A stretch of DNA of 64,000 nt, taken from Candidatus Methylomirabilota bacterium. Lineage in GTDB: Bacteria > Methylomirabilota > Methylomirabilia > Rokubacteriales > CSP1-6. The notes below the pieces were generated by a model that saw nothing but the letters and a program-made list of their open reading frames with translations, was not told the origin of the DNA and did not search any database. The position numbers and the translations under genes were made by a program. The stretch lies in the NCBI GenBank assembly GCA_036001065.1, contig DASYUQ010000033.1, positions 37,283 to 101,282 on the forward strand, given 5' to 3'. This document shows positions 520 to 55,185 of this stretch, in pieces (within the stretch, counting starts at the first letter, position 1; every line of letters starts with the position of its first letter).

Positions 520-570
520 GCCGTCCTATGTTTATCGAAGAGTGGTATCGCGTCCAGAGCGCGCTCCTTC

Positions 571-700
571 GAGCGCCGGTTTTGCCGGCGCAATCCTTTG
601 GGGAGGTTCGGAGGGGGCCGCGCGGCCCCCTCCGACTTGGGGTCTCGGACGGGGCCGTCGCGCCCTGTGGGCGCGCCTGTGAAGGCGCCCCCTCCGACCT
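571..700 (+). repeat. GC-rich REP-like tandem-hairpin repeat, copy A (long form)
   Basis: CGCCGGTTTTGCCGGCG hairpin plus a GGAGGGGGCC-GCGC-GGCCCCCTCC hairpin plus a third GC hairpin, ending CCCTCCGACCT-ATG(kdsA). Between pyrG and kdsA. Confidence 0.75.
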
Positions 701-10568: not shown

Positions 10569-11729
10569 ATGACGAACATGGCGCGGGACGAGTACCTGTT
10601 CACGTCGGAATCGGTCACGGAAGGTCATCCCGACAAGATCGCCGATCAGATCTCCGACGCGGTCCTCGATGCGATCATCGCGCAGGATCCGATAGGACGG
10701 GTGGCCTGCGAATCACTCCTCACCACCGGCCTGGTGGTGGTGGCAGGCGAGATCACCACCGCGTGCTACGTCGACATCCCGCGTATCGCCCGCGAGACGA
10801 TCCGGCAGGTCGGCTACACCCGCGCCAAGTACGGCTTCGATTCCGACACGTGCGCCGTGATCACGGCCATCGACGAGCAGTCCTCCGACATCGCCATGGG
10901 CGTGGACAGCCTGGGCGCGGGCGATCAGGGGCTGATGTTCGGCTTCGCCTGCACGGAGACGCCCGAGTTCATGCCGCTGCCCATCACGCTGGCCCACAAG
11001 CTGGTGATGAGGCTGGCCCAGTTGAGGAAGTCCGGCGCCATCGACTGGCTGCGACCGGACGGCAAGTCCCAGGTCACCGTGCGCTACGTGGACGGCAAGC
11101 CGCGCGCGGTGGAGACGGTCGTCGTCTCGACCCAGCACGGTCCCGACGTGTCGAGCGAGCGGATCCGCGAGGACGTCATCGAGCAGTGCATCGTGCCGAC
11201 GATCCCCGCCGAGCTGCTGGACCGCAAGCAATGCGTCTTCCACGTCAACCCGACCGGACGGTTCGTGACCGGCGGCCCGATGGGAGACACCGGCCTCACC
11301 GGACGCAAGATCATCGTCGACACCTACGGCGGCTCCTGCCCGCACGGAGGCGGGGCCTTCTCCGGCAAGGATCCCACGAAGGTCGATCGCTCGGCCTGCT
11401 ACATGGCCCGCCATGTGGCCAAGAACATCGTGGCCGCCGGCCTGGCCGAGCGGGCGCTGGTGCAGGTGGCCTACGCCATCGGTGTGGCCGATCCGGTCTC
11501 GATCATGGTGGACACCTTTGGCACCGGGAAGGTGCCGAACGCGAGGCTGCAGGAGATGATCCGGCGCCACTTCGACTTCACGCCCGCCGGAATCATCAAG
11601 TACCTGAACCTGCGGCGCCCCATTTACAAAAAGACGGCGGCGTACGGGCACTTTGGCCGGTCCGAGCCGGAATTCACCTGGGAGCGGACAGATCGGGTGA
11701 AGGACCTGCGCGACGACGTCCGCGTCTAA
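10569..11729 (+). CDS. metK: S-adenosylmethionine synthetase
   Basis: [39 protein letters not shown] and [16 protein letters not shown] motifs. Confidence 0.95.
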
Positions 11730-11848
11730 TCGGATGGGGCGGACGTCACGGCCTCGCGGCCCCGTCCGGATCCATAGTCGGAGGAGGCCTCACGGACCCC
11801 TCCAAGCCACCCCAAAGGATGATTGCGCCGGCTTCGCCGGCGCTCGAG
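11728..11848 (-). repeat. REP-like repeat, copy C (inverted orientation)
   Basis: The reverse complement reads CGAGCGCCGGCGAAGCCGGCGCAATC..CCTTTGGGG..GGAGGGGTCCGTGAGGCCTCCTCCGAC..GGACGGGGCCGCGAGGCC...CGCCCCATCCGATTAG. It starts at the metK stop codon. Confidence 0.7.
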
Positions 11849-13191: not shown

Positions 13192-15906
13192 ATGAGACGA
13201 TCCCAAACAGCTGTCCTGCTCGTCCTGGTCCTCCTGGTCCTGGGCCTCGTCGGGCAGATCGTCCCCCTCTACACGGATTGGCTCTGGTTCCAGGAGGTCG
13301 GCTACGTCCAGGTCTTCCTGACGACCCTTTGGTACCGAGGCACGCTCTTCACCGCCGTCGCCCTCGGCGTCCTCGTGTTCCTTTACGCGAACCTGACCTT
13401 CGCCGCCCGCACGGCGCGTCCCGACGTGCTCTGGGAGCTGGAGGACCAGCTCGGCCTGCCCGGCCGAGTGGTGATCGAGCCGCTCCTCCGCCGGTTCCTG
13501 CCCATCGTGCTCGCGTTCATCTCGTTCACCTCGGGCCTGCGGGCCAGCGCCCACTGGGAAACCGTCCTCGGCTACCTCAACGCGGTGCCGTTCAACACCA
13601 CCGACCCGCTCTTCGGCCGGGACCTGGCGTTCTTCGTCTTCACGCTGCCGTTCTGGCGCCTGCTGAGCGGCTGGGCCACCGCGCTCGTCGTGGGCACGCT
13701 CCTGCTCACGGTCCTGGTCTACGTGCTCCAGCGAAGCCTGGTGCTGACGGCGCGCGGCCCGCGGCTGGCGGCCGGCGCCCGGGCGCATCTGCTGGTGCTG
13801 GGGGCGCTGCTGCTGGCGCTCGCCGGCGTCGGGTTCTGGCTGGACCGGTTCGAGCTGGTCTACTCCCCACGCAGCGTCATCTACGGGGCCGCCTACACCG
13901 ACGTCCACGCCTCGCTGCCCGTGCTCCAGGCGCTGGCGGTGCTGGCGGTCCTCTGCGCCCTGGCCTGCCTGCTGCAGCTCACGCGCACAGGCCTCAGGGT
14001 CGTCGGGGCCGGCGTGCTCGTGCTGGTCGCCGTCTGGGTGGTGGGCCTGGGCATCTATCCCGCGCTCCTGCAGCGCTTTCGGGTCGCCCCCAACGAGCTG
14101 GTCGCCGAGCGGCCGTTCATCGTCCACAACATCCGGATGACCCGCCAGGCCTACGGGCTCGATCGCATCGAGGAGCACGAGTTCCCGGCCGACGAGACGC
14201 TGGATGCCCGGGCGCTCGAGCGCAACGTGCTGACGATCAAGAACATCCGGCTCTGGGACCACCGGCCGCTCCTCCGGACGTTCGCGCAGCTCCAGGAGAT
14301 CCGCACCTACTACAAGTTCGTGGACGTCGACAACGACCGCTACACGCTGAACGGCGAGTACCGGCAGCTCATGCTGTCGCCGCGCGAACTGTCCTACCCC
14401 CACCTGCAGGGGGCGCGGAGCTGGATCAACGAGCACCTGACGTTCACCCACGGCTACGGCGTGATCGTGGGGCCGGTGAACCGGATCACGTCCGAGGGGC
14501 TCCCGGAGCTCCTGGTCAAGGACATTCCTCCCAAGAGCGACGGCTTCGCCAAGATCACGCGACCCGAGATCTACTTCGGCGAGATCTCCAACGACTACGT
14601 GCTGCTGCGCACCCGCTCCCAGGAGCTCGATTACCCGGCCGGCGACCAGAACGTGTACACGACCTACCGGGGAACGGGTGGAATCCCGCTCTCGTCGTTC
14701 CTGCGCAAGGCCCTCTTCGCCGCGCGCTTCGGCGAGATCAAGATGCTGCTCTCCCACGACCTGACGGCGGAGAGCCGGGTCCTGATGCACCGGGCGGTCG
14801 CCGAGCGGGTGCGGCTCATCGCGCCGTTCTTCCGCTTCGATCGGGACCCGTACATCGTCGTCACCGACGACGGACGCCTGGTGTGGATGCTCGACGGCTA
14901 CACCACTACCGACCGCTACCCGTACTCGGAGCCGGTCCGCAACGTCGGCAACTACATCCGCAACTCGGTCAAGGTCACGGTGGACGCCTACCACGGCGCC
15001 GTCGGGTTCTACCTGGCCGACTCGACCGACCCCATCGTGCGCGCCTACGCCCGCGCCTTCCCCGGTCTCCTCCGCCCGCTGGAGGAGCTGCCCGCCGACC
15101 TGCGCCGGCATCTCCGCTACCCGGAGGACTTCTTCGCCATCCAGGCGCGGAAGTACGCCGTCTATCACATGCTGGAGCCCCAGGTCTTCTACAACAAGGA
15201 GGACCTCTGGGCCGTCCCGCGGCGGACCGTCGACGGCCGCGACCGCGAGATGGAGCCCTACTACACGATCATGCGGCTGCCCGGCGAGAAGCGGGAAGAG
15301 TTCATTTTACTGACGCTCTTCAACCCCTCCCGCCGGGACAACATGATCGCGTGGCTGGCCGGTCGCTCGGATCCGCCGAACTACGGGCGCCTCGTCGTCT
15401 ACAACTTCCCCAAGCAGAAGCTCGTCTATGGGCCCCGCCAAGTCGACGCGCGCATCGACCAGGACCCCGTCATCTCCCAGCAGCTGTCGCTCTGGAACCA
15501 GCGCGGCTCGACCGTGATCCGCGGCTCGCTGCTGGCCATCCCGATCGACCAGTCGCTGATCTACGTCCAGCCGCTCTACCTGGCGGCGTCCGAGCAGGGT
15601 GCGCTCCCCGAGCTCCGCCGCGTGATCGTCGCCTACGGCAATCAGATCGCGATGGAGCCGACGCTGGAGCAATCGCTGGCCCGCGTCTTCGGCGGGCGGC
15701 TCGCCAGCCCCGCGGCCGCTGTCCCGGCGCTCGGTCCCGGTGGGCAGCGTGAGCCGGCGCCTCCGCTCCGCGCCCTGGGCCACCGCGCCTGGGAGATCTG
15801 GCAGCGGGCGCAGGACGCGCTGCGACGGGGAGACTGGACCCAGTACGGCGCGGAGCAGAAGCGTCTGGAAGAGACGCTGCGCGCCCTCACCGAAGCCAAC
15901 CGCTAG
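13192..15906 (+). CDS. UPF0182 family large membrane protein (about 900 aa, N-terminal multi-TM region)
   Basis: MRRSQTAVLLVLVLLVLGLVGQIVPLYTDWLWFQEVGY... resembles the actinobacterial UPF0182 family. The ORF-track entry 12568..15906 is longer because its frame runs open through the ahcY 3' end. Confidence 0.7.
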   Translation: MRRSQTAVLLVLVLLVLGLVGQIVPLYTDWLWFQEVGYVQVFLTTLWYRGTLFTAVALGVLVFLYANLTFAARTARPDVLWELEDQLGLPGRVVIEPLLRRFLPIVLAFISFTSGLRASAHWETVLGYLNAVPFNTTDPLFGRDLAFFVFTLPFWRLLSGWATALVVGTLLLTVLVYVLQRSLVLTARGPRLAAGARAHLLVLGALLLALAGVGFWLDRFELVYSPRSVIYGAAYTDVHASLPVLQALAVLAVLCALACLLQLTRTGLRVVGAGVLVLVAVWVVGLGIYPALLQRFRVAPNELVAERPFIVHNIRMTRQAYGLDRIEEHEFPADETLDARALERNVLTIKNIRLWDHRPLLRTFAQLQEIRTYYKFVDVDNDRYTLNGEYRQLMLSPRELSYPHLQGARSWINEHLTFTHGYGVIVGPVNRITSEGLPELLVKDIPPKSDGFAKITRPEIYFGEISNDYVLLRTRSQELDYPAGDQNVYTTYRGTGGIPLSSFLRKALFAARFGEIKMLLSHDLTAESRVLMHRAVAERVRLIAPFFRFDRDPYIVVTDDGRLVWMLDGYTTTDRYPYSEPVRNVGNYIRNSVKVTVDAYHGAVGFYLADSTDPIVRAYARAFPGLLRPLEELPADLRRHLRYPEDFFAIQARKYAVYHMLEPQVFYNKEDLWAVPRRTVDGRDREMEPYYTIMRLPGEKREEFILLTLFNPSRRDNMIAWLAGRSDPPNYGRLVVYNFPKQKLVYGPRQVDARIDQDPVISQQLSLWNQRGSTVIRGSLLAIPIDQSLIYVQPLYLAASEQGALPELRRVIVAYGNQIAMEPTLEQSLARVFGGRLASPAAAVPALGPGGQREPAPPLRALGHRAWEIWQRAQDALRRGDWTQYGAEQKRLEETLRALTEANR

Positions 15907-15985
15907 ATTAGTCGGAGGGGGCGGACGTTACGGCCCCCTCCGAGGCCTCCCCCAGGAAGGGATTGCGCCGGCGGAGCCGGCTCTC
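15904..15985 (-). repeat. REP-like repeat, copy D (short, inverted orientation)
   Basis: The reverse complement reads GCCGGCTCCGCCGGCGCAATCCCTTCCTGGGGGAGGCCTCGGAGGGGGCCGTAACGTCCGCCCCCTCCGACTAATCTAG. It begins at the stop of the UPF0182 gene. Confidence 0.7.
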
Positions 15986-16036
15986 AAAAGCCCGCGTCGC
16001 GCGCACCACCCTTCTCGATGCTGAATCCGGAGACCG

Positions 16037-16126
16037 CTAGTGCCGTTCCAACTATTCGCGCCTAGGAAGGCACCGTGTACGTCGTTCGTGGACAGATTTA
16101 GTATCAACAAGTTGGAACGGTACTAG
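16037..16126. repeat. 90-bp MITE/ERIC-like element with 16-bp terminal inverted repeats (copy E1)
   Basis: CTAGTGCCGTTCCAAC...GTTGGAACGGTACTAG. The right TIR supplies the TAG stop of lptFG (minus strand). It lies 33 bp after REP copy D. Confidence 0.7.
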
Positions 16127-18555
16127 GTGCGGGCGCGGAGGAAGAGGGAGGCGCCGAGTCCGAGGAAGATAACGTTGGCCGTCCAGGCCGCGAGCAGGGG
16201 CGGCAGCAGATCGGCGCGCGCGAAGGCCCGGGCGGAGTAGTCGACCACCATGTAGGCCGCCATGATGGCGATCGCCAGGGCGATGGCGTAGACGCGTCCG
16301 CCGCGCGGCGACTGGAGCGCGAAGGGAATGGCGACCAGCACCATGATCAGGTTCTTCAGCGGATCGGACAGCTTGGAGTACAGGTCCACCAGGTACTTCT
16401 TGACCTGAAACCCGGCTGACTCCAGCCGGGCAACGTACTCGCGCAGCTCCCGGTAGCTCATCGCCGACGGGGGCTTCTGGATCTCGGTGAAGTCCGTAAT
16501 GCTCTCCTCCAGCCCGAGCGCGGTCCGGGCGAACGGGATCGTGGTGACCCGGCCGTGCCCGTCGATCTCGCGGATCGCGCCGTTCCTGAACTCCCAGCCG
16601 GTGGGCGTCCAGTGGGCCTGGCGCGCGTCGAGCCGGCTGACAAGACGGAAGTCGGCGTCGATCTCGAGCACCGTCACCCCGTAGAGGTCCTGCGTCGCCG
16701 GGTTCAGCAGTTCCACCCGGTAGAACCGGGTGTCCGAGCTGCGGAGCCAGAGGCGCGTGCGCGACTGCAAGTGGCGGGGGAGCTGGCCCCTGATCTTGAC
16801 GCGATCCACCTCCTCGCCCCGCTCGTTGAGGATGGGGAGCAGGAACTCCTGAAAGAGGCCCGCTGCCACGGCGGCGACGAGCCCGCACAGCAGCACCGGC
16901 GCGCTGGCCCGGTACAGGCTGACGCCGGCGGCCTTCAGCGCCGTCAGCTCGTGCCACCGGGTGAGGGTCAGGAAGAGGAAGATCGTCGCCACCAGCATGA
17001 CGATGGGCAGCCCCTGATGGAGCGCTACCGGCAGCGCGAAGGCAAAGTGCTGGACGATGTAGGTGAACGGCGGCTTCACCCGCAGGTAGCGGTCGAGAGT
17101 CTGCAGCAGATCGACCACCACGAAGAGGGCGCCGGCCACCGCCAGGCCGATGCCGACGAAGGCCAGCAACCGCCGGAGCAGGTAGCGGTCGACGATGTAG
17201 GTCGTCTCGCGCCCGGTCCCGCTGAAGCGTTCCACGCGCCGCCCGCGCCGCCGCGGCAGGTGCTGCCAGGCGAAATCGAAGGCGCGCCAGAGGGCCCTCA
17301 GGCGCGGTGCCCGCCACTCCCGGGCGGTGGCTGTCAGCAGTGCGGCGCCCAGGATCGAGAAGAGGACGTTCGGCGTCCAGATCGCTGCCGCGATGGGCAG
17401 CCGTTCCCGAAGCGCCAGGCCCTCCAGCGTGGTCAGAATCAGATAATAGGTGACCAGGATGGCGAGCGTGCCGACCAGCGCCACGCTCCGCCCTCCCCGA
17501 TGGGACCGCACCGCCAGCGGAAAGCCCAGCACCGAGAAGACCAGCGCCGCCACCGGAAATGCGAAGCGCTTCTGGAACTCGACCTCGTACGGCCGCCGGG
17601 TGTAGGCGTCGTCTGGCAGCGCCTCGATCTTCTGACGCAGCTGGCGGAGCCCCAGATCCTTCTCCGGCTTGTCGAGCCGCACGGCTGCCTTGAGCGGCGA
17701 CTCCAGGGCCAGCGTCATGTCGTAGATGGAAAACGCCGTGTACCGGTAGCGGCGGGAGTCGGCGGCGCCGCCGGGTGGCGGCCCCTCCGTCACGATCTCC
17801 CTGGGCGGATCGACCGGATCCACGTCGGCCTCGTTGAGGCCGCCGTCGAGCAGGCGCAGGGTGATCCGGCGGCTGACCTCGTCGGTGAGCAGACGCCCCT
17901 CCCGAGCGGTGATGATGCGGGTGAGCTTCGGGTCCCGCTCGTCCGAGACGATCACGCCGCGCAGCCCGACCTGGGAGGCGCTGATATCCTCCACGTAGAT
18001 CGTCAGGTCCGCGAAGCTCGTGTTGAAGATCCGTTCTTTGAGCCCGCTGACCGCCCGCGCCTGCAGAATCTTGAACAGTTGCCCCTGGAACTCGCGATTG
18101 GCCAGCGGGTTCAGGACCAGGGTCAGGGCGGCGGTGGTCAGGGTGACGATGAGGGCGGCCAGCAACGCCGGACGGAACAACCGCAGCAGGCTCACGCCGG
18201 CGGCCTTGAAGGCCACGATCTCCAGGTCTCCCGCCATGCGGCCCCCGGCCAGGAGCACGGCGACCAGCAGCGCCATCGGCAGCGTATGGGCCAGGAAGGA
18301 GGGGAGCATGAAGATGAGGAGCTGGATCACCAGATGGAACGGCACGCCCTTGGTGATCACCAGCTCGGTCAGGTGGTAGATGCGATCGATGATGAGGAAG
18401 AACGTGAAGAGGGCGACGCCGAGCGCGAAGGGCGCCAGCAGCTCGCGCAGGAAGTACCGGTCCAGGACCGCCAGCCGCGGCAGCCTCACCGCTCTGTTGT
18501 ACCATAGGCCCGTGAGACGGACCTTGCTGGTGTCGCTGGCGATTCTCGCGCACAT
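16123..18555 (-). CDS. lptFG: LPS export permease, LptF and LptG (YjgP/YjgQ) modules fused in one uninterrupted frame
   Basis: There are two consecutive YjgP/YjgQ-type permease units (LDRYFLRELLAPF... and TYIVDRYLLRRLLAFV...) with no stop codon between them. The start is uncertain: the ATG at 18555 is used here, and GTG alternatives lie at 18654 and 18489. Confidence 0.6.
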   Translation of the reverse strand: MCARIASDTSKVRLTGLWYNRAVRLPRLAVLDRYFLRELLAPFALGVALFTFFLIIDRIYHLTELVITKGVPFHLVIQLLIFMLPSFLAHTLPMALLVAVLLAGGRMAGDLEIVAFKAAGVSLLRLFRPALLAALIVTLTTAALTLVLNPLANREFQGQLFKILQARAVSGLKERIFNTSFADLTIYVEDISASQVGLRGVIVSDERDPKLTRIITAREGRLLTDEVSRRITLRLLDGGLNEADVDPVDPPREIVTEGPPPGGAADSRRYRYTAFSIYDMTLALESPLKAAVRLDKPEKDLGLRQLRQKIEALPDDAYTRRPYEVEFQKRFAFPVAALVFSVLGFPLAVRSHRGGRSVALVGTLAILVTYYLILTTLEGLALRERLPIAAAIWTPNVLFSILGAALLTATAREWRAPRLRALWRAFDFAWQHLPRRRGRRVERFSGTGRETTYIVDRYLLRRLLAFVGIGLAVAGALFVVVDLLQTLDRYLRVKPPFTYIVQHFAFALPVALHQGLPIVMLVATIFLFLTLTRWHELTALKAAGVSLYRASAPVLLCGLVAAVAAGLFQEFLLPILNERGEEVDRVKIRGQLPRHLQSRTRLWLRSSDTRFYRVELLNPATQDLYGVTVLEIDADFRLVSRLDARQAHWTPTGWEFRNGAIREIDGHGRVTTIPFARTALGLEESITDFTEIQKPPSAMSYRELREYVARLESAGFQVKKYLVDLYSKLSDPLKNLIMVLVAIPFALQSPRGGRVYAIALAIAIMAAYMVVDYSARAFARADLLPPLLAAWTANVIFLGLGASLFLRART

Positions 18556-22216: not shown

Positions 22217-22220
<4 letters not shown>

Positions 22221-22954
22221 AAGGGGCCCGTCCCCCGGCCGCGTCGGCGCCGGCGATCGTCAGGCTCGGCGCCGTGGAATCGACGCAGGCCGTGGCCTTC
22301 GAGCTGGCCGAGCGAGGCGCGGCCGATCGCACCGTCGTCCTCGCCGATCACCAGACCGCCGGGAGAGGACGACGCGGCCGGGCGTGGAACGACGAGCCGG
22401 GCACGGGCCTTCTCGTCTCGATCGTGCTCCGCCCGCGCCTGGCGCTGCCGCGCCTGCCGCTGCTGTCCTACGCCGCCGCGATCGCCGTGGCCGAGGCACT
22501 GGACGGGGTCGCCGCGCTCCGGCCCACGCTCAAGTGGCCGAACGACGTCCTCGTCCGCGACCGCAAGATCGCCGGTATCCTCCTGGAGTCGCGCATCGGC
22601 GCGGCGGCCGCGACCGTCGTGGTCGGCATCGGCGTGAACCTCACCCAGCGGCGCTTCCCGGCCGAGCTCGAGGGGCGGGCGACATCGATCGCGCTGGAGA
22701 CCGGCCGCACGGTGGAACGGGAGCCGGTCCTGGGCGCACTCCTCGGCGCGTTCGACCTCTGGCGGGGCCGTCTGGAGGCGGACGGCTTCGCGCCCGTGCG
22801 CGAGCGCTGGCTCGCGCTGAGCGAGACCATCGGACGGCGGATCAGCGTCGACGGCCGGGCGGGCCTGGCGGTCGATGTCGATCTGGAGGGCGCGCTCCTG
22901 CTCCAGGACGGCCCGGGCCTCCGGCGCGTGCTCGCCGGCCCCATCGAAGGCTAG
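22217..22954 (+). CDS. birA: Biotin--[acetyl-CoA-carboxylase] ligase (group I, no HTH domain)
   Basis: GRGRRGRAWN biotin-ligase motif. The GTG start overlaps the valS stop. Its stop codon TAG lies inside the CTAG end of repeat E2. Confidence 0.8.
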
Positions 22955-23040
22955 TGCCGTTCCACCGATTCGCGCCGAGGGAGGCACCGTGTACGTCGTT
23001 CCTGGCCAGATGTAGTACCACCACGTTGGAACGGCACTAG
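22951..23040. repeat. 90-bp MITE/ERIC-like TIR element (copy E2), about 85% identical to E1
   Basis: CTAGTGCCGTTCCACC...GTTGGAACGGCACTAG fills the whole birA-coaX gap. The left TIR supplies the birA stop TAG. Confidence 0.7.
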
Positions 23041-23042
23041 CC

Positions 23043-23810
23043 GTGCTCCTGGTCGCCGACGTCGGCAACACCAACACCACGATCGGCGTCTTCGACGGCG
23101 CCCGCCTGCGCGTGTCGTGGCGGCTCACCAGCCGCCGCGAGCAGACTGCGGACGAGTACGGCGTCTTCATCGAGACGCTGCTGCGCACGCGGGGCATCCA
23201 GCCCCAGGACGTCACCGGCATCGCCATCTCGAACGTCGTGCCCCCGGTGCAGCAGATACTCGAGTGGATGTGTGAGAAGTACTTCGGGCGCGCCGCATTC
23301 TTCGTGGAGCCTGGCGTCAACACGGGCCTGGTGCTGGCGGTGGAGAATCCCCGCGAGGTCGGTCCGGACCGGATCCTCGGCGCCGTGGCGGGCGAGGCGC
23401 TCTACGGGGTGCCGCTGATCGTCGTCGATTTCGGGACGGCGACCACCTTCAACTGCGTCAACGCCCGCCGCGAATTCATCGGCGGCGCCATCGCGCCGGG
23501 GCTGGGGGTCTCGGTGGAGGCGCTGATCAGCCGCGCGGCGCGGCTCTTTCGTGTCGAGCTGGTGCAGCCGCCCCAGGCGATCGGCCGCGACACGATTACC
23601 AACATCCAGTCGGGGGTCGTCTACGGCTGGGCGGGCCTCGTGGACGGGATCGTCGAGCGGATGAAGCACGAGATGGGCGGCGCCCCCGCGGTGGTGGCCA
23701 CCGGAGGTCTGGTCTCGCTGATCGCCGGCGTGACGCGCTCGATCCAGCACGTCAACCCCGACCTGAAGCTGGAGGGGCTCCGGCTCCTGTACGAGCGGGC
23801 CGGCCGCTGA
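23043..23810 (+). CDS. coaX: Type III pantothenate kinase
   Basis: LLVADVGNTNTTIGVF N-terminal and DFGTATTF motifs. GTG start 3 nt after repeat E2. Confidence 0.88.
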   Translation: MLLVADVGNTNTTIGVFDGARLRVSWRLTSRREQTADEYGVFIETLLRTRGIQPQDVTGIAISNVVPPVQQILEWMCEKYFGRAAFFVEPGVNTGLVLAVENPREVGPDRILGAVAGEALYGVPLIVVDFGTATTFNCVNARREFIGGAIAPGLGVSVEALISRAARLFRVELVQPPQAIGRDTITNIQSGVVYGWAGLVDGIVERMKHEMGGAPAVVATGGLVSLIAGVTRSIQHVNPDLKLEGLRLLYERAGR

Positions 23811-30154: not shown

Positions 30155-31097
30155 GTTCGAGCAGCCGCTGCTGGAGCTGGAGGCCCGCATCGCGGAGCTC
30201 CAGGCTCAGGACGATCCCGCCCAGCGCGAGGAGATCGCCAAGCTCGAGGAGCGGCTCCAGCGCCTCCGGCAGAAGACCTTCGCCAGCCTCACGGCCTGGC
30301 AGACGACGCAGCTGGCGCGCTACCCGCGGCGCCCCCACACCCGCGACTTCTGCCGACTGCTCCTCGAGGACTTCATCGAGCTCCATGGCGACCGGCTCTA
30401 TGGCGACGACCCGGCGATCGTCGGAGGGCTCGCGCGCTTCGACGGCTACGGGGTCGTGGTGATCGGTCACCAGAAGGGGCGGGAGACGCGGGAGAAGATC
30501 GCGCGCAATTTCGGGATGCCCCACCCGGAAGGCTACCGCAAGGCGCGCCGACTCATGCAGCTCGCCGAAAAGTTCGGCAAGCCGGTCATCAGCTTCATCG
30601 ATACGCCCGGCGCCTACCCCGGCATTGGCGCCGAGGAGCGCGGCCAGGCCGAGGCGATTGCCCGGAATCTCCGCGAGATGGCCGCGCTCCGCACCCCCAT
30701 CGTCGCCGTCGTCACCGGCGAGGGGGGCAGTGGCGGCGCGCTGGCCATCAGCATGGGCAATCGCGTGCTCATGCTCGAGCACGCGGTCTACTCCGTCATC
30801 TCACCGGAGGGCTGCGCGGCCATCCTCTGGGGCGACGCGGCCAAGGCGTCGGAGGCCGCGGAGATCATGAAGATCACCGCGCGCGACCTCTTCCGGCTCG
30901 GCGTGATCGATGCCATCGTGCCCGAGCCGCCGGGGGGCGCCCATCGGGACTGGGAGGGGGCGGCGGCCAATCTACGGGCCGTGCTGACGGAGCACCTCCG
31001 GGAGCTGCGGGCCAAGAGCCCCGAGACGCTGGTCAGCGAGCGGTACGAGAAGTTCCGGCGCATCGGGACCTTCGAGGAGGAATCCCTCCCGCGCTAA
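30138..31097 (+). CDS. accA: Acetyl-CoA carboxylase carboxyltransferase alpha subunit
   Basis: The start overlaps the dnaE stop. [26 protein letters not shown] motif. Confidence 0.92.
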
Positions 31098-31252
31098 GCG
31101 GGCCGGCGGCGCGCCGGGCAGGGTCCGCCGACCCGTTCGCGCCGCCTAGGACTTCGCGCCAGACGGTGTATGGGAACGGCACAGCGGGGTGCCTGGCGCC
31201 AGAGCTCGTGGTCGCCGGATCCTGCCCGGCGCGCCGTCGGCCCGCTTAGCGC
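31091..31252. repeat. 32-bp inverted repeat (31/32 match) flanking a 98-bp spacer
   Basis: Left arm GCGCTAAGCGGGCCGGCGGCGCGCCGGGCAGG (31091-31122). The right arm (31221-31252) is its reverse complement with one mismatch. The arms embed the TAA stops of accA and sorC. Confidence 0.7.
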
Positions 31253-32236
31253 TTGAGGACCGCTTGGGCGACATCCTCGTCGGTCACCAAGACGTTCATG
31301 AACCGGCCCCGCAGCGCGCCGCGCACCGCCTCGATCTTCGACTTGCCGCCGGCCACGGCGATGACATAGCGGTCGTCACGGCGCGACAGCTCCTGCAGGC
31401 GCTCGCCCCCCACCGACAGGACCCGCCGCATCAGCGCCCGCAGTTCGGGCTCGTCGACGATCCGGCCCTCGGCGTCGAAGGGCTGGTAGTTGATCTCGCC
31501 CACGATCCCGAACTCCCGCAGCCGCTTGACGCTCACGCCGTAGGACTCGGCCAGGGAGCAGAAGCCCGGCGTCTGCTCGCCGATCTGGCCGACGCCGACC
31601 AGCGCGATGTCCACCGCCTGGGCCGCCTCGTAGATCTGCCGGACCTCGGGGTCGCGCAAGAGCCGTCGCCGCTCGCGCTCGATCTGCCGGAGGGAGACCA
31701 GGTGCTGCACCGGCAGGGCGTAGGCCGTCACGGGGGGACGGTACTTGGCCGCCATCATGCCCACCAGCGTGTTGGGCGACAGGTCCACCAGCTTCAGCGT
31801 GCTTTCTCCGGAGAGGGGATAGAGCGCCAGGTCGCGGACCCGGCGCTCCCGCAGGGCCCGGATGGTGTGATAGAGCGTGAAACCACAGGAGAGGCCCACC
31901 CGCATGCCGTTGGCGGCGACCTTCTCGAAGTAGGCCGCGGCGGCCACCCCCAGCTCTTCCTTCACGTCGCTGCGGCCGCCGGCGGCGATGACCACCACGT
32001 CGCGCAGGCCGAAGCGCTCGGTCAGGGCCGTCTCCAGCTCCTGGGTGCGGGGGAGATCCAGCTCCACGCGGACCAGGCCCTCGTCGAAGGCGCGCTTGAG
32101 CAGCCGGGAGACGGTGGCCGCCGACACGCCCAGGGCGCTGGCGATGTCCTTCTGGCTGCGCCCCTGGCGGTAGTAGAGCTCCAGGCACTGCACCATCTGC
32201 TTCAGCTCGCCGGGGCGGTGAGAAATTAATTTCATG
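31246..32236 (-). CDS. SorC/DeoR (CggR-like) family transcriptional regulator with a sugar-phosphate-binding domain
   Basis: N-terminal HTH (DIASALGVSAATVSRLL) plus a SorC sugar-binding domain. Divergent from the FBP aldolase/phosphatase gene. Confidence 0.8.
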
Positions 32237-36982: not shown

Positions 36983-37038
36983 TGCCGGAGCGCCGGTGAG
37001 CGCTCCTGTGTCAACCCAAAAGTCGCGCGCGCTTCCTC

Positions 37039-37144
37039 GCGCGCCGGCTTCGCCGGCGCAACCCTCCGGGGTGGTTGGGAGGGGGCCGCGAGGCCCCTTC
37101 CGACCAGGGATCTCGGAGGGGGCCTTCGAGGCCCCCTCCGATCT
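37039..37144 (+). repeat. REP-like repeat, copy B
   Basis: CGCCGGCTTCGCCGGCGCAACCCTCCGGGGTGGTTGGGAGGGGGCCGCGAGGCCCCTTCCGAC..GGAGGGGGCCTTCGAGGCCCCCTCCGATCT-ATG. Between the GT4 gene and the hypothetical 37145 ORF. Confidence 0.75.
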
Positions 37145-37513
37145 ATGAGCGCCCGCGGGGAGGGGCTGCGGCGTATCGAGAAGGACATCGTCGCCGAGAA
37201 GGCGGCGACCCTCGGCCGCGCCGGCGAGCGCCTGGAGCAGGCCCTGGCCGAGGTGACCGAGCTCGGCGCCCGGCTCGCTGCGGCCACCGATCCCCAGGAG
37301 CGTGCCCGCCTCGGTCCCGAGTACGAGCGCGCGCGCGCGCGCGCCGCCAGCGCGCGGCTCGGGCTCCTGATTCAGCGTGAGGCGATCGGCCTGCGCCATC
37401 ACCGGATCGTGGACCAGCAGTTTCCCGAACCGCCACCGCTCGAGGCGGGGCCTTGCAGCCGGGGGACGGCAGTCGCAGGGAGCGCATCGACCGCGCCGAC
37501 CCCGCTGCCATGA
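37145..37513 (+). CDS. Hypothetical 122-aa coiled-coil protein, translationally coupled (ATGA) to the PaaK-like ligase gene
   Basis: GC3-rich coding texture. Its ATG (37145) is supplied by the end of repeat copy B, the same CTATGAGCGC junction as kdsA. Confidence 0.45.
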   Translation: MSARGEGLRRIEKDIVAEKAATLGRAGERLEQALAEVTELGARLAAATDPQERARLGPEYERARARAASARLGLLIQREAIGLRHHRIVDQQFPEPPPLEAGPCSRGTAVAGSASTAPTPLP

Positions 37514-38817
37514 TCTGGAACACGGCGGCCGAGACGCAGCCGCGAGCCGAGCGCGAAGCGCTCCAGCTGGCCCGCCTGCGAGACACCGTAGCCTGGGCCG
37601 CCGAGCGCGTGCCGTTCTACCGGGAGCGCCTGTCGGGCGCCTCCCTACGTAGCCTCGACGACCTGGCGCGCCTGCCGTGCACGCGCAAGGACGAGCTCCG
37701 CGCCCAGTACCCCTTCGGGCTCTTCGCCGTCCCCCAGTCGGAGCTCGCGCGCCTCCACGCCTCCTCGGGCACGAAAGGCAAGCCCACGGTGGTCGGTTAC
37801 ACCGCGGCGGACCTCGACGTCTGGCGCGAGGTCATGGCCCGCGTGATGGTGGCCGCCGGAGCACGGGCGGGTGATCTGCTGCACGTCGCGTTCGGCTACG
37901 GCCTCTTCACGGGCGGCCTCGGATTCCACCAGGGCGCCGAGCGCATCGGCCTGACCGTGGTGCCGGCTTCCTCGGGCAACACGGCGCGCCAGTGTCTGCT
38001 GCTCCGTGACCTCCGGCCCTCCGGCATCGCCGCGACGCCCTCCTTCGCCCTCCATATCGCCGAGACGCTGGCCGAGCAGGGGAGCAAGCCGGGGGAGACC
38101 GGGCTCCGCTACGGGATGTTCGGCGCCGAGCCCTGGAGCGAGGGCCTGCGCCACGCGATCGAGGCCGGGCTCGGCTGCCGCGCCTGCGACATCTACGGCC
38201 TCTCGGAGATCATCGGCCCCGGGGTGTCGGGAGAGTGCGAGGCGCGCGAAGGGCTCCACATCTGTGACGACCACTTCCTGCCCGAGGTCGTCGATCCCGC
38301 GTCCGGGGCCCCGCTGCCGCCGGGACGTCAGGGAGAGCTCGTCCTCACGACGCTCACCAAGCGCGCCATGCCCCTGATCCGCTACCGCACCGGCGACATC
38401 ACCGCGCTGACACTCGAGCCCTGCCGCTGCGGGCGGAGCTCCGCGCGAATGGCGCGACTCATCGGCCGGGCCGACGATATGCTTATCATCAAGGGAGTCA
38501 ACGTCTATCCCTCGGAGGTCGAGCAGGCGTTGCTGGACCTGGAGGACTTGGTGCCGCAGTACCGGCTGGTGGTCGACCGGACCGGGACCCTGGCGCGGGT
38601 CGAGGTGCAGGTCGAGCCGGCGCGGGCGTTCCTGGAGCGGTGCGGCAATCTGGAATCCGGCGGCCCGGCGGTGGCGGCGCTGCGCGAGCGGGTGGCCGGC
38701 CGCCTGCGCGCGGCCCTCGGGCTGAGCGTGGACGTAACGCTCCTGCCGGCCCGGACGCTTCCGCGCTCGGAGGGCAAGGCGGTTCGGGTCGTCGAACGAA
38801 CGGAGGGCAAGCGATGA
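37510..38817 (+). CDS. paaK: Phenylacetate-CoA ligase family (PaaK-like adenylate-forming enzyme)
   Basis: SSGTKGKPTVVGYT AMP-binding motif. YGLSE.. and C-terminal blocks of the PaaK/CapK/F390-synthetase family. 435 aa. Confidence 0.8.
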   Translation: MIWNTAAETQPRAEREALQLARLRDTVAWAAERVPFYRERLSGASLRSLDDLARLPCTRKDELRAQYPFGLFAVPQSELARLHASSGTKGKPTVVGYTAADLDVWREVMARVMVAAGARAGDLLHVAFGYGLFTGGLGFHQGAERIGLTVVPASSGNTARQCLLLRDLRPSGIAATPSFALHIAETLAEQGSKPGETGLRYGMFGAEPWSEGLRHAIEAGLGCRACDIYGLSEIIGPGVSGECEAREGLHICDDHFLPEVVDPASGAPLPPGRQGELVLTTLTKRAMPLIRYRTGDITALTLEPCRCGRSSARMARLIGRADDMLIIKGVNVYPSEVEQALLDLEDLVPQYRLVVDRTGTLARVEVQVEPARAFLERCGNLESGGPAVAALRERVAGRLRAALGLSVDVTLLPARTLPRSEGKAVRVVERTEGKR

Positions 38818-54876: not shown

Positions 54877-55185
54877 TCAATAAAGTGTCTCGGCGGGTGC
54901 CCGCCGGGCGATGTCGGCGGGACGGCTGCCATCCCGCCGGGCTTCGGCCTCGCTGGCGTAGCAGCGCTCGGGACTCGCCTCTTCGTAGAACCGACTCCCG
55001 GGCACGTAATACACGCGTCCCGACTCCTCGGTGACGTAGCCCTTGATGGGATGGGTCGGCGGGCACGCCCAGGGAGTCTCGGCAGCCACGCCGGGTCGCT
55101 CGACCGCGCGCGTCGATGACGGGACCACGGCAGCGTCTGCCGTCCAGACGAGCAGGCGTCGGAGCCGTGCCCGATTGAGGGGCAA
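54877..55185 (-). CDS. Hypothetical small protein with a KGYVTEESGRVYYVPGSRFYEEASPERCYASEAEARRDG module
   Basis: 102 aa ORF. The conserved-looking C-terminal module resembles small secreted-domain repeats. Start uncertain. Confidence 0.3.
   Translation of the reverse strand: MPLNRARLRRLLVWTADAAVVPSSTRAVERPGVAAETPWACPPTHPIKGYVTEESGRVYYVPGSRFYEEASPERCYASEAEARRDGSRPADIARRAPAETLY

What the first reader, a model, noticed from the sequence alone, without database searches (positions are those of the whole stretch)
16037..16126. A 90-bp element with 16-bp terminal inverted repeats (two copies, about 85% identical), MITE/ERIC-like or structured RNA
Copies at 16037-16126 and 22951-23040 share the ends CTAGTGCCGTTCCAMC … GTTGGAACGGYACTAG and the internal blocks TTCGCGCC, AGGCACCGTGTACGTCGTTC and AGTA. 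E2 fills the entire birA-coaX gap, and its CTAG provides the birA stop codon. E1 provides the lptFG stop and lies next to REP copy D. Spurious 60-aa ORFs (15928..16110 and 22842..23024, both containing NDVHGA.LGAN.WNGTS) are just translations of the element. The long perfect stem suggests a transcribed hairpin (terminator, insulator or sRNA) or a non-autonomous transposable element.
Basis: seen in the sequence. Interest (0 to 1): 0.6.

Follow-up and report, generated by a model that had tools for sequence, protein, structure and literature searches.

The report
Tiny mobile hairpin element, GIY-YIG family
The two 90-bp inverted-repeat elements are non-coding copies of a very widespread soil-bacterial mobile element whose coding relatives are only about 322 bp long and carry a 93-residue GIY-YIG nuclease, which points to how such nuclease-linked repeats may spread.

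Summary
E1 (16037-16126) and E2 (22951-23040) are 88% identical and bounded by 16-17-nt inverted repeats that begin with CTAG.

They are mobile DNA, not a conserved RNA. A strain 99.3-99.6% identical to the window lacks E2 exactly and has a single CTAG at the birA stop, so E2 is an 86-bp insertion flanked by a repeated CTAG.

These come from many phyla and all are MAGs. The usual length is 108-109 bp and the interiors are unrelated to one another.

A 322-326-bp size class with the same termini encodes a 93-aa GIY-YIG nuclease. Its last residues (KLERH) and its stop codon lie inside the right repeat.

No DDE transposase with these ends was found. There is no Rfam hit, no arm covariation and no terminator.

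Closest known system: the Ssn ssDNA nucleases with flanking hairpin repeats (Chenal 2025), but the published repeat consensus does not match here.

Best reading: E1 and E2 are MITE-like non-autonomous elements mobilised in trans by an Ssn-like nuclease. That enzyme assignment and the mechanism are inferred, not shown. No nuclease gene lies in the window.

The parts
16037..16126 (+). E1: a 90-bp ORF-less element. In the + orientation the right end (..ATCAACAAGTTGGAACGGTACTAG) is the end that encodes ..NKLERH* in the coding relatives.
   Evidence: end typing; ssDNA and RNA folds dominated by the 17-bp terminal stem.
16037..16053 (+). E1 left terminal inverted repeat, CTAGTGCCGTTCCAACT. It matches the family 17-mer exactly.
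16110..16126 (-). E1 right terminal inverted repeat (AGTTGGAACGGTACTAG on the + strand), with one mismatch to the left arm. Its CTAG (16123-16126) holds the lptF/G stop codon on the minus strand.
22951..23040 (+). E2: a 90-bp ORF-less element. It is an 86-bp insertion plus a second CTAG relative to the empty allele.
22951..22954 (+). Left CTAG of E2. It contains the birA stop TAG (22952-22954) and corresponds to the single CTAG of the empty allele.
   Evidence: L001 ...GAAGGCTAGCCGTG...; the blastn pieces break at 22954 and 23037 and overlap by CTAG.
23037..23040 (+). Right CTAG of E2, the second copy of the target tetranucleotide. It lies 2 nt before the coaX start codon GTG at 23043.
22217..22954 (+). 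birA (biotin-protein ligase). Its stop codon overlaps the insertion target. The start is taken from the gene called in L001.
23043..23810 (+). coaX (type III pantothenate kinase), immediately downstream of E2.
16123..18489 (-). Fused lptF/lptG permease gene. Its TAG stop lies in E1's right CTAG. The start at GTG 18489 is inferred.
   Evidence: In relatives the spacer to UPF0182 is only 6-8 bp and carries no element.

Best explanation
E1 and E2 are two diverged copies of a small non-autonomous mobile DNA element (MITE-like).

The family is defined by termini of about 17-29 nt, CTAGTGCCGTTCCAACT..GCCAAA, present in inverted orientation. Copies sit at the rare tetranucleotide CTAG, which then flanks the element on both sides. 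In G+C-rich genomes CTAG often overlaps a TAG stop codon, so copies end up directly behind genes without damaging them. That is the situation at birA (E2) and lptF/G (E1).

The coding members of the family are 322-326-bp cassettes. In them the same termini enclose one 93-residue single-domain GIY-YIG nuclease. The last residues (KLERH) and the stop codon of that protein are encoded by the right terminus itself.

Inferred, not shown:
- This nuclease is a relative of the Ssn site-specific ssDNA nucleases and acts in trans on the ORF-less copies.
- It recognises the termini, possibly as a hairpin formed when the DNA is single-stranded, and cuts at or next to CTAG. Host replication or ligation completes insertion at another CTAG.

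In the window the elements are probably passengers with no host function. No nuclease gene lies within the 64 kb.
For: Mobility:
- L001 is 99.3-99.6% identical to the window over 3.5 kb. It lacks E2 exactly and has one CTAG.
- L002 and L003 carry E2.
- In relatives the lptF/G-UPF0182 spacer is 6-8 bp.

Family:
- The paired-termini pattern hits more than 120 metagenome contigs, and the 17-mer hits more than 120 GTDB genome stretches. Hits span Acidobacteriota, Methylomirabilota, Gemmatimonadota, Nitrospirota, Proteobacteria, Binatia, Tectomicrobia and others.
- Among 239 non-redundant elements, C precedes TAG in 236 and G follows CTA in 226.
- In 153 of 239 elements, an end coincides with the stop of an open frame of at least 100 codons. 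That is 37% of ends against 9-17% in control frames.
- CTAG is 10-fold under-represented in the window.

Coding partner:
- The 322-326-bp class encodes a Pfam GIY-YIG domain protein (E about 1e-13).
- There are 344 protein clusters. Of the 120 listed, 98 are exactly 93 aa and about 100 end in KLERH.
- Y5, Y16, R26 and H30 are invariant and E50 is nearly invariant.
- dN/dS is 0.07-0.35 with saturated dS.
- The predicted fold (pLDDT 85) is closest to UPF0213, Slx1 and I-TevI.
- One such cassette is in another Methylomirabilota MAG.
- One MAG holds a cassette plus at least 4 ORF-less copies.
- Some short elements retain the 3' coding remnant.
- A different GIY-YIG subfamily has its own termini, again with the stop codon inside them.

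No DDE partner: no such element was seen among the 120 unbiased single-terminus stretches.

Literature: Ssn nucleases are 94-aa GIY-YIG ssDNA nucleases whose genes are flanked by cognate hairpin repeats (PMC11893778).
Against: - No GIY-YIG gene lies in the window, and whether the source MAG has one is unknown.
- The similarity of the E1/E2 interior to the Methylomirabilota cassette L244 is not above shuffles. E1/E2 being a direct deletion derivative is therefore unproven.
- Each exact nuclease sequence examined sits at one locus only, so recent movement of the coding cassette itself is not shown.
- GIY-YIG enzymes are hydrolytic nucleases with no known strand-transfer activity (background knowledge). 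A second activity must be assumed.
- The published Ssn repeat consensus does not match these termini, and CDD family membership could not be tested.
- All hosts are MAGs, so part of the cross-phylum spread could be mis-binning.
- The empty allele could reflect hairpin-mediated precise deletion rather than enzyme action.
Confidence: 0.7

Rival explanations
1. This is an ordinary MITE mobilised by a DDE transposase that duplicates TA or CTAG (IS630/Tc1-mariner-like or IS5-like). The GIY-YIG ORF is only a passenger or an invading homing endonuclease sitting between MITE ends.
For: The inverted termini, the small size and the repeated CTAG (which is equally a TA duplication) are classical MITE features. 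IS630-family elements duplicate TA and IS5 targets CTAG (background knowledge). GIY-YIG enzymes are not known to transpose DNA.
Against: - The length-unbiased 17-mer scan returned 120 stretches. They contained ORF-less elements, five GIY-YIG cassettes and solo ends, but no element of 0.7-3.5 kb with these ends. No transposase ORF lay inside any solo end.
- The GIY-YIG ORF is integrated with the terminus. It has a fixed length of 93 aa, a KLERH tail and a stop codon inside the repeat in about 100 of 120 diverged clusters.
- A second GIY-YIG subfamily shows the same design with different termini.
Confidence: 0.12
2. The element is a domesticated host system rather than a selfish element. As proposed for Neisseria NTS/SsnA, the repeats would be recognition sites at which an Ssn-type nuclease cuts incoming or replicating ssDNA to modulate recombination or transformation.
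For: Ssn/NTS modulates transformation in N. meningitidis, and its authors suggest domestication. Each nuclease sequence examined is at one conserved locus across samples, as with single-copy RAYTs. The nuclease is under purifying selection.
Against: - Copies still had to spread, and an insertion/absence polymorphism separates strains about 99.4% identical.
- Placement is explained by CTAG availability rather than by gene function.
- No function can be tested here.
- This rival is compatible with the main explanation for how copies arise.
Confidence: 0.1
3. The element is a structured RNA, such as a 3'-UTR stabiliser, terminator/insulator or sRNA, selected for its long stem.
For: A 14-17-bp stem gives strongly negative folding energies (E1 RNA z = -5.6, DNA z = -5.4). 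Both copies lie at gene 3' ends.
Against: - There is no Rfam hit at the gathering threshold or at a permissive threshold.
- There is no T-tract terminator.
- Arm changes are almost never compensated (8 compensated against 157 unilateral).
- Interiors fall into 156 unrelated clusters with no fold excess.
- Either end can face the gene.
- One allele of the same operon does without it.
Confidence: 0.05
4. The two copies are a chance or segmental duplication limited to this genome.
For: Only two copies are in the window. The 20-nt internal block has no exact match in 185,579 species genomes.
Against: Flank similarity ends exactly at CTAG. The termini recur in hundreds of unrelated loci. An empty site exists.
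Confidence: 0.01

Closest known systems
Ssn nucleases with NTS/SRM repeats (Chenal et al., Nat Commun 2025, PMC11893778)
   Same: - The protein is a single-domain GIY-YIG of about 93-94 aa.
- Its gene is flanked on both sides by a cognate repeat.
- That repeat is also scattered in many ORF-less copies, mostly outside genes.
- The repeats can form hairpins in single-stranded DNA.
- The authors noted the IS-like architecture.
   Different: - Here each end is half of a long-range inverted repeat, with arms 50-280 nt apart. In Ssn systems each repeat is a self-contained 20-50-nt hairpin.
- The published SRM consensus matches 0 of 239 elements.
- The stop codon and the last five residues are encoded by the terminus.
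- Both sides carry CTAG, and an exact empty site documents insertion or excision. The Ssn paper's main text has no mention of MITEs or duplications in a term search, and in its discussion mobility is raised only as a hypothesis.
- Assignment to CDD cd10448 could not be checked.
REPIN-RAYT systems (REP sequences with a single-copy HUH tyrosine transposase)
   Same: There is one protein gene flanked by the repeats and many non-autonomous inverted-repeat doublets that fold as hairpins. Persistence is long, with lineage-specific subfamilies.
   Different: The enzyme fold is entirely different (GIY-YIG, not HUH/Y1). There is no GTAG head. The termini are nearly identical across phyla, whereas REPs are lineage-specific.
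Bacterial MITEs with TA or CTAG targets (Correia/NEMIS, RUP; IS630 and IS5 families)
   Same: Size is about 100 bp. They have terminal inverted repeats, a short palindromic target repeated at both ends, intergenic or 3'-end locations, and co-transcribed hairpins.
   Different: No DDE transposase with these termini was found. The only coding relative is a 93-aa nuclease. The comparison with these families rests on background knowledge, not on sequence similarity.
[quoted passage not shown]
   Same: This is a possible mechanistic analogy. The enzyme recognises DNA hairpins in ssDNA, and insertion occurs next to a fixed tetranucleotide that then appears to flank the element.
   Different: IS200/IS605 use a covalent HUH tyrosine intermediate and have no terminal inverted repeats. 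Nothing here shows ssDNA intermediates.

Membership tests
MITE (non-autonomous terminal-inverted-repeat element) | Short (under about 300 bp), no ORF, terminal inverted repeats | tested here: met
   Each copy is 90 bp with 16-17-nt arms. No frame-specific ORF signal exists in the family.
MITE (non-autonomous terminal-inverted-repeat element) | Insertion with a short target repeat, shown by an empty site | tested here: met
   E2 compared with L001 shows an 86-bp insertion with CTAG on both sides and once in the empty allele. A 2-bp TA duplication and a 4-bp CTAG duplication cannot be told apart. No exact empty site was found for E1.
MITE (non-autonomous terminal-inverted-repeat element) | Many copies sharing the termini | tested here: met
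Only 2 copies are in the window.
MITE (non-autonomous terminal-inverted-repeat element) | A cognate autonomous element with the same termini that encodes a transposase | tested here: inconclusive
   Coding relatives with the same termini exist, but they encode a GIY-YIG nuclease, not a known transposase. No DDE element was found.
Ssn / SRM system (cd10448 GIY-YIG ssDNA nucleases) | Single-domain GIY-YIG protein of about 94 aa | tested here: met
   The partner protein is 93 aa, matches PF01541 and has the GIY-YIG fold. It is encoded in related loci, not in the window.
Ssn / SRM system (cd10448 GIY-YIG ssDNA nucleases) | Assignment to CDD family cd10448 | not testable with these tools
   CDD is not available. 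NCBIfam gives no informative hit. The nearest solved structures are UPF0213 proteins and Slx1.
Ssn / SRM system (cd10448 GIY-YIG ssDNA nucleases) | Gene flanked on both sides by the repeat that is also dispersed in the genome | tested here: met
   Examples are L140, L156, L161, L200, L236 and L244. The same MAG as L156 has ORF-less copies.
Ssn / SRM system (cd10448 GIY-YIG ssDNA nucleases) | Repeat fits the published SRM consensus HGTCWY..., a compact self-contained hairpin | tested here: not met
   The regex hits 0 of 239 elements and 0 of 6 cassettes with 150-bp flanks. The arms are 50-280 nt apart.
Ssn / SRM system (cd10448 GIY-YIG ssDNA nucleases) | Sequence-specific cleavage of ssDNA only | not testable with these tools
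   This needs biochemistry.
REP/REPIN-RAYT | Associated HUH Y1 transposase and a GTAG-headed REP | tested here: not met
   The associated protein is GIY-YIG, and the termini start with CTAG.
IS630- or IS5-derived MITE | A DDE transposase gene bounded by the same termini | tested here: not met
   None was seen among 120 single-terminus stretches and 1.6 Mb of flanks.
Rfam structured RNA / intrinsic terminator | Match to a curated covariance model, compensatory changes in the stem, or a T-tract after the stem | tested here: not met
Free-standing GIY-YIG homing endonuclease gene | Nuclease plus a separate DNA-binding domain, spreading by homing into one cognate allele without inverted termini | tested here: not met
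   The protein is a single 93-aa domain. Inverted termini are present, and ORF-less copies lie at many unrelated CTAG sites.

The most novel reading that the evidence does not exclude
The 322-326-bp cassette would be a complete autonomous transposon, the smallest known, whose only protein is a 93-residue GIY-YIG nuclease. On this reading it moves itself and its 90-109-bp derivatives between CTAG sites by a mechanism not used by any described transposon class: hairpin- or terminus-directed hydrolytic cuts, with joining done by host enzymes. E1 and E2 would then be footprints of a new mechanistic class of DNA transposition that has spread across at least eight bacterial phyla. This would also explain how Ssn-associated and 'CGTC-type' orphan repeats multiply.
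Probability: 0.35. Interest if true: 0.85.

Novelty: new variant of a known kind. Interest (0 to 1): 0.64.

Why it matters
Small GIY-YIG (Ssn-type) nucleases were linked to dispersed hairpin repeats only in 2025, and how those repeats multiply is still open. An earlier survey found a large class of REP-like repeats with no dedicated transposase (PMC3733652).

This family offers a clean test case. It has sharply defined termini and a defined 4-nt target. It shows a natural presence/absence polymorphism between near-identical strains. Its one-gene coding form of about 322 bp could be synthesised and tested directly.

If the nuclease is sufficient for mobility, it would define a new transposition chemistry and a very compact DNA-insertion module.

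For genome annotation the family also has practical consequences. It explains spurious ORFs (VPFQL.. / ..WNGT.. / ..KLERH peptides). It explains false N-terminal extensions of 'GIY-YIG family protein' calls. It explains insertions directly behind TAG stop codons in many soil MAGs.

Tried and rejected
- Rfam at the gathering threshold on the window and at a permissive threshold on E1: nothing relevant.
- Exact 20-nt internal block against GTDB genomes: 0 hits. The E1/E2 subfamily is therefore lineage-restricted.
- Literature search by sequence word: only unrelated primers.
- Search for a classical IS with these ends: candidate long pairs and solo ends in L015, L098, L119 and eight others turned out to be degraded or truncated elements next to ordinary genes. 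One was an unrelated IS21 fragment.
- GIY-YIG gene in the window: only weak chance or UvrC-like hits, and 37501-37584 lies inside a phenylacetate-CoA-ligase-like ORF.
- E1/E2 interior as a recognisable deletion derivative of cassette L244: local alignment is no better than shuffles. The resemblance I saw by eye (RBS, GTG, YV) is not claimed.
- Exact empty site for E1: two guesses for the lptF/G start are not on record, and the closest homologues are only 75-84% identical. Only more distant orthologous spacers were obtained.
- Peptide-coding hypothesis for the 108-bp class (the frame VPFQL...NKLERH is in phase): stop codons are not depleted in that frame.
- Whole-element palindrome or structured interior: rejected.
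- SRM consensus of the Ssn paper: no hits.
- Viral contigs and plasmids: no copies and no homologue.
- Multi-locus copies of an identical nuclease: each was found at a single locus.
- Further empty sites among the fetched loci: none besides L001.
- Possible third relic at 31122-31192: the alignment is unconvincing.

Full report
**1. The observation**

E1 (16037-16126) and E2 (22951-23040) are both 90 bp and 88% identical. Similarity to each other begins and ends at a CTAG on both sides.

Each copy has 16-17-nt terminal inverted repeats: CTAGTGCCGTTCCAAC(T) and its complement, with one arm mismatch per copy. These four arms are the only close matches to the repeat in the window.

The window comes from a Methylomirabilota (Rokubacteria) MAG. 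Gene context is as follows:
- UPF0182, + strand, ends at 15906.
- Fused lptF/G, minus strand, with its stop in E1's right CTAG.
- valS.
- birA, with its stop in E2's left CTAG.
- coaX, starting 2 nt after E2.

**2. E2 is an insertion**

Looking up the exact CoaX protein gave three short public contigs. L002 and L003 carry E2. L001 does not.

L001 reads ...ATCGAAGG CTAG CCGTGCTC..., with birA and coaX 2 nt apart. It is 99.3-99.6% identical to the window over 3.5 kb. The two blastn pieces break exactly at 22954 and 23037 and overlap by the CTAG.

So E2 is 86 bp of extra DNA, with CTAG present once in the empty allele and twice in the filled one. Because CTAG is a palindrome, three descriptions cannot be told apart: a 4-bp duplication, a 2-bp TA duplication, or 'insertion next to CTAG by an element that itself ends in CTAG'.

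The birA stop codon pre-exists the element and is regenerated by the repeat.

No exact empty site for E1 was recovered. In relatives with 75-84% identical LptF/G, however, the convergent lptF/G-UPF0182 spacer is 6-8 bp and has no element. In the window that spacer is 216 bp.

E1 and E2 differ by 12% while the filled and empty strains differ by about 0.6%. Two readings fit this: E2 came from an unseen master copy, or it was precisely lost in the L001 lineage.

**3. The family**

All hits are MAGs from soil, peat and groundwater. The taxa named in the records are:
- Acidobacteriota (Terriglobia, Acidiferrales, Vicinamibacteria, Thermoanaerobaculia)
- Methylomirabilota
- Gemmatimonadota
- Nitrospirota
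- Binatia
- Tectomicrobia
- Limnocylindrales
- Gamma-, Beta- and 'delta'-proteobacteria
- two Actinomycetota MAGs

Several hits lie on contigs of 0.5-5 Mb, so the breadth is not only a binning artefact. Some hits, for example a 1.8-kb 'Thermoplasmata' contig, may be mis-binned.

I extracted 239 non-redundant elements. Their features are:
- Flanks. C precedes TAG in 236 elements and G follows CTA in 226. No preference extends further out.
- Stop-codon association. In 153 of 239 elements, at least one end coincides with the stop of an open frame of at least 100 codons. That is 37% of ends against 9-17% in the two control frames. Either end can face the gene, with a 34:45 split.
- Target rarity. 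CTAG is ten-fold under-represented in the window: 19 sites against 182 expected, and 5 of the 19 lie inside E1/E2. The 'behind a TAG stop' position of E1 and E2 is therefore the family norm. It follows from target choice plus survival of harmless insertions.
- Length. In the length-unbiased genome scan, 62 of 108 elements are 107-109 bp. The metagenome pattern capped length at 108, so only the genome scan is used for this point. The 90-bp size of E1/E2 is a minor class. The E1/E2 interior is seen only in this population.
- Sequence conservation. Conservation covers nt 1-21, a sub-terminal GCCAAA at about nt 24-29, and the mirror positions at the other end.
- End asymmetry. The two ends differ consistently at nt 18-19, ACT-AT against ACT-TG. 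The counts are 87 AT/TG, 0 AT/AT and 9 TG/TG.
- Interiors. They fall into 156 unrelated clusters among 228 elements, the largest with 28 members. They are not palindromic, do not fold better than shuffles, and show no frame-specific ORF signal.
- Arm covariation. In the 17 terminal pairs there are 8 compensated changes against 49 G-T and 108 mismatches. This is what protein-recognised termini predict, not a stem kept by pairing. The caveat is that elements were collected with at most 2 mismatches per arm.

**4. Coding relatives**

Five of the 108 elements from the genome scan are 322-325 bp long. They carry one ORF that starts about 41-45 nt inside the left terminus. The ORF ends ...(N/D)KLERH*. 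Codons K-L-E-R-H are the right terminus (AAGTTGGAACGGCAC), and the stop is the TAG of the terminal CTAG.

The evidence on the protein is:
- Pfam assigns the GIY-YIG domain, with E from 2.5e-11 to 3.4e-13.
- A database search found 344 clusters. Of the 120 listed, 98 are exactly 93 aa and about 100 end in KLERH or a one-residue variant. Some gene calls start with MPFQL or VPFQL, which is the translated left terminus.
- Y5, Y16, G18, R26 and H30 are invariant and E50 is nearly so. By spacing these correspond to the catalytic Tyr, Tyr, Arg, His and Glu of I-TevI. That mapping is my background knowledge, not a test.
- dN/dS between cassettes from different phyla is 0.07-0.35 with dS saturated. The non-coding left terminus stays nearly identical, so it is under its own constraint.
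- The AlphaFold model has pLDDT 85 and a beta-beta-alpha-beta-alpha-alpha topology. Its nearest solved folds are UPF0213 BH0048, Slx1 and I-TevI. The terminus-encoded tail, residues 89-93, is predicted disordered.
- In a library clustered at 50% identity the KLERH clade collapses to a few representatives. These sit within a much larger family of small GIY-YIG proteins: 2,645 clusters at E<=1e-10.
- A second subfamily, ending ..YLTG*, has different 15-nt termini, TTAACCCTGTTAAAT. Its stop codon again lies inside the right terminus. The design is therefore general.

Links between cassettes and short elements:
- The termini and the CTAG flanks are identical.
- A cassette occurs in another Methylomirabilota MAG (L244).
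- One Gammaproteobacteria MAG has a cassette (L156) and at least four ORF-less copies (L168, L188, L221, L238).
- Intermediates retain the last 22-32 codons (L080, L121, L144) or other gene fragments (L119, L120, L157).

Two things are not shown:
- The E1/E2 interior does not resemble cassette L244 beyond chance.
- Each exact nuclease sequence examined is at one locus in all samples. The coding copy therefore looks single-copy, as RAYTs are.

**5. What was not found**

- No element of 0.7-3.5 kb with these ends was found, and no transposase inside solo ends, in 1.6 Mb of flanking sequence. If even 5% of terminus-bearing elements were such an IS, about six would be expected among the 120 unbiased stretches.
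- There are no copies in IMG/VR viral contigs and no homologue in PLSDB plasmids.
- No GIY-YIG gene lies in the window.
- There is no Rfam family, terminator or promoter.

**6. Mechanism**

Shown:
- Insertion or excision occurs at CTAG.
- The termini are conserved and asymmetric.
- A conserved nuclease ORF, under purifying selection, is built into the same termini.

Established by others (PMC11893778):
- 94-aa single-domain GIY-YIG proteins of the Ssn family bind a cognate hairpin repeat in ssDNA and cut a few nucleotides upstream. They do not cut dsDNA or RNA.
- Their genes are typically flanked by the repeat.
- The authors note the IS-like layout and propose domestication.

An earlier survey found 'CGTC-tagged' REPs, including Neisseria dRS3 and Rickettsia RPEs, to lack any dedicated transposase (PMC3733652).

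Inferred for this family:
- The 93-aa nuclease acts in trans on ORF-less copies.
- It recognises the termini, plausibly paired as a 17-bp stem with a fixed 2-nt mismatch when the DNA is single-stranded.
- It cuts at or beside CTAG.
- Host replication, repair or ligation completes insertion at another CTAG.

GIY-YIG enzymes have no known strand-transfer chemistry, so this last step is the weakest. A dsDNA 'cut at CTAG and religate' scheme fits the sequence data equally well.

My rough confidences:
- Mobile, non-autonomous element: about 0.9.
- The GIY-YIG protein is the mobilising enzyme: about 0.6.
- ssDNA-hairpin route: about 0.3.

In the window itself the elements are most likely neutral passengers. 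E2 displaces the original GAAGG upstream of coaX by 86 nt and places a hairpin inside the birA-coaX transcript. Three of the four sampled alleles nevertheless carry it.

**7. Comparison and novelty**

As a MITE the finding is ordinary. As a member of the Ssn/SRM world it is a distinct variant for these reasons:
- The arms are split rather than forming compact hairpins.
- It does not match the published SRM consensus.
- The coding sequence runs into the terminus.
- It has a defined CTAG target.
- The ORF-less form has a sharply preferred length of 108-109 bp.
- Its termini are nearly identical across many phyla.
- It provides direct presence/absence evidence for mobility. In the Ssn paper a term search of the main text found no mention of MITEs or duplications, and its discussion raises mobility only as a hypothesis.

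Six literature searches found no description of a GIY-YIG cassette bounded by inverted termini or of this repeat. The held library is incomplete, so prior description elsewhere cannot be excluded.

**8. Unexplained**

- Why the length is held at 108-109 bp when the interiors are unrelated.
- What the nt 18-19 end asymmetry means.
- Whether the source genome has a nuclease gene.
- Whether CTAG depletion is connected with the element.

Noticed in passing
window 593-644, 11727-11753, 11769-11820, 15909-15947, 55044-55070: A REP-like family of G+C-rich hairpins with the head (T/A)AGTCGGAGGGGGC...GCCCCCTCCGA (D19/I2). The xGTC head plus hairpin resembles the 'CGTC-tagged' REP/NTS class now linked to Ssn nucleases. 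The published SRM regex does not hit them.
   Followed up: partly
window 559-665 and 37027-37133; related piece at 15957-15996: A 107-nt direct repeat at 82% identity (D1). A 40-nt piece complementary to it lies in the UPF0182-lptF/G spacer (I6). That 216-bp spacer is therefore a pile-up of three repeat types, whereas relatives have a 6-8-bp spacer.
   Followed up: partly
window 31085-31133 / 31210-31258: A palindrome with 49-nt arms, 90% complementary and 76 nt apart (I1). Between the arms it has a CTAG at 31146 and the word GGGAACGGCAC. The alignment to E1/E2 is unconvincing. It may be another small palindromic element.
   Followed up: partly
L247 870-1159: A different small GIY-YIG subfamily (87 aa, ending ..SYLTG*) in a low-G+C contig is bounded by its own 15-nt inverted repeat, TTAACCCTGTTAAAT / ATTTAACAGGGTAAA. 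Its stop codon lies inside the right arm. Many representatives of the wider family end in ..YLTG.
   Followed up: partly
protein P0265 (131 aa) and P0262: Some gene calls start with MPFQL, the translated left terminus. P0265 contains an internal ..FKLERH, which looks like a short element nested inside a nuclease gene and read in frame.
   Followed up: no
window, whole: CTAG occurs 19 times in 64 kb against about 182 expected from base composition. Five of the 19 sites are inside E1/E2.
   Followed up: no
L035 5542-5739 and 5891-6088: Two tandem, distantly related (about 35% identity) small GIY-YIG ORFs lie next to a 108-bp element.
   Followed up: no
L025 8990-9173, L050 3627-3835, L082 2159-2369, L104 7653-7862, L119 414-680: Extra termini lie within or beside elements, indicating nested or adjacent insertions and duplicated ends.
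   Followed up: no
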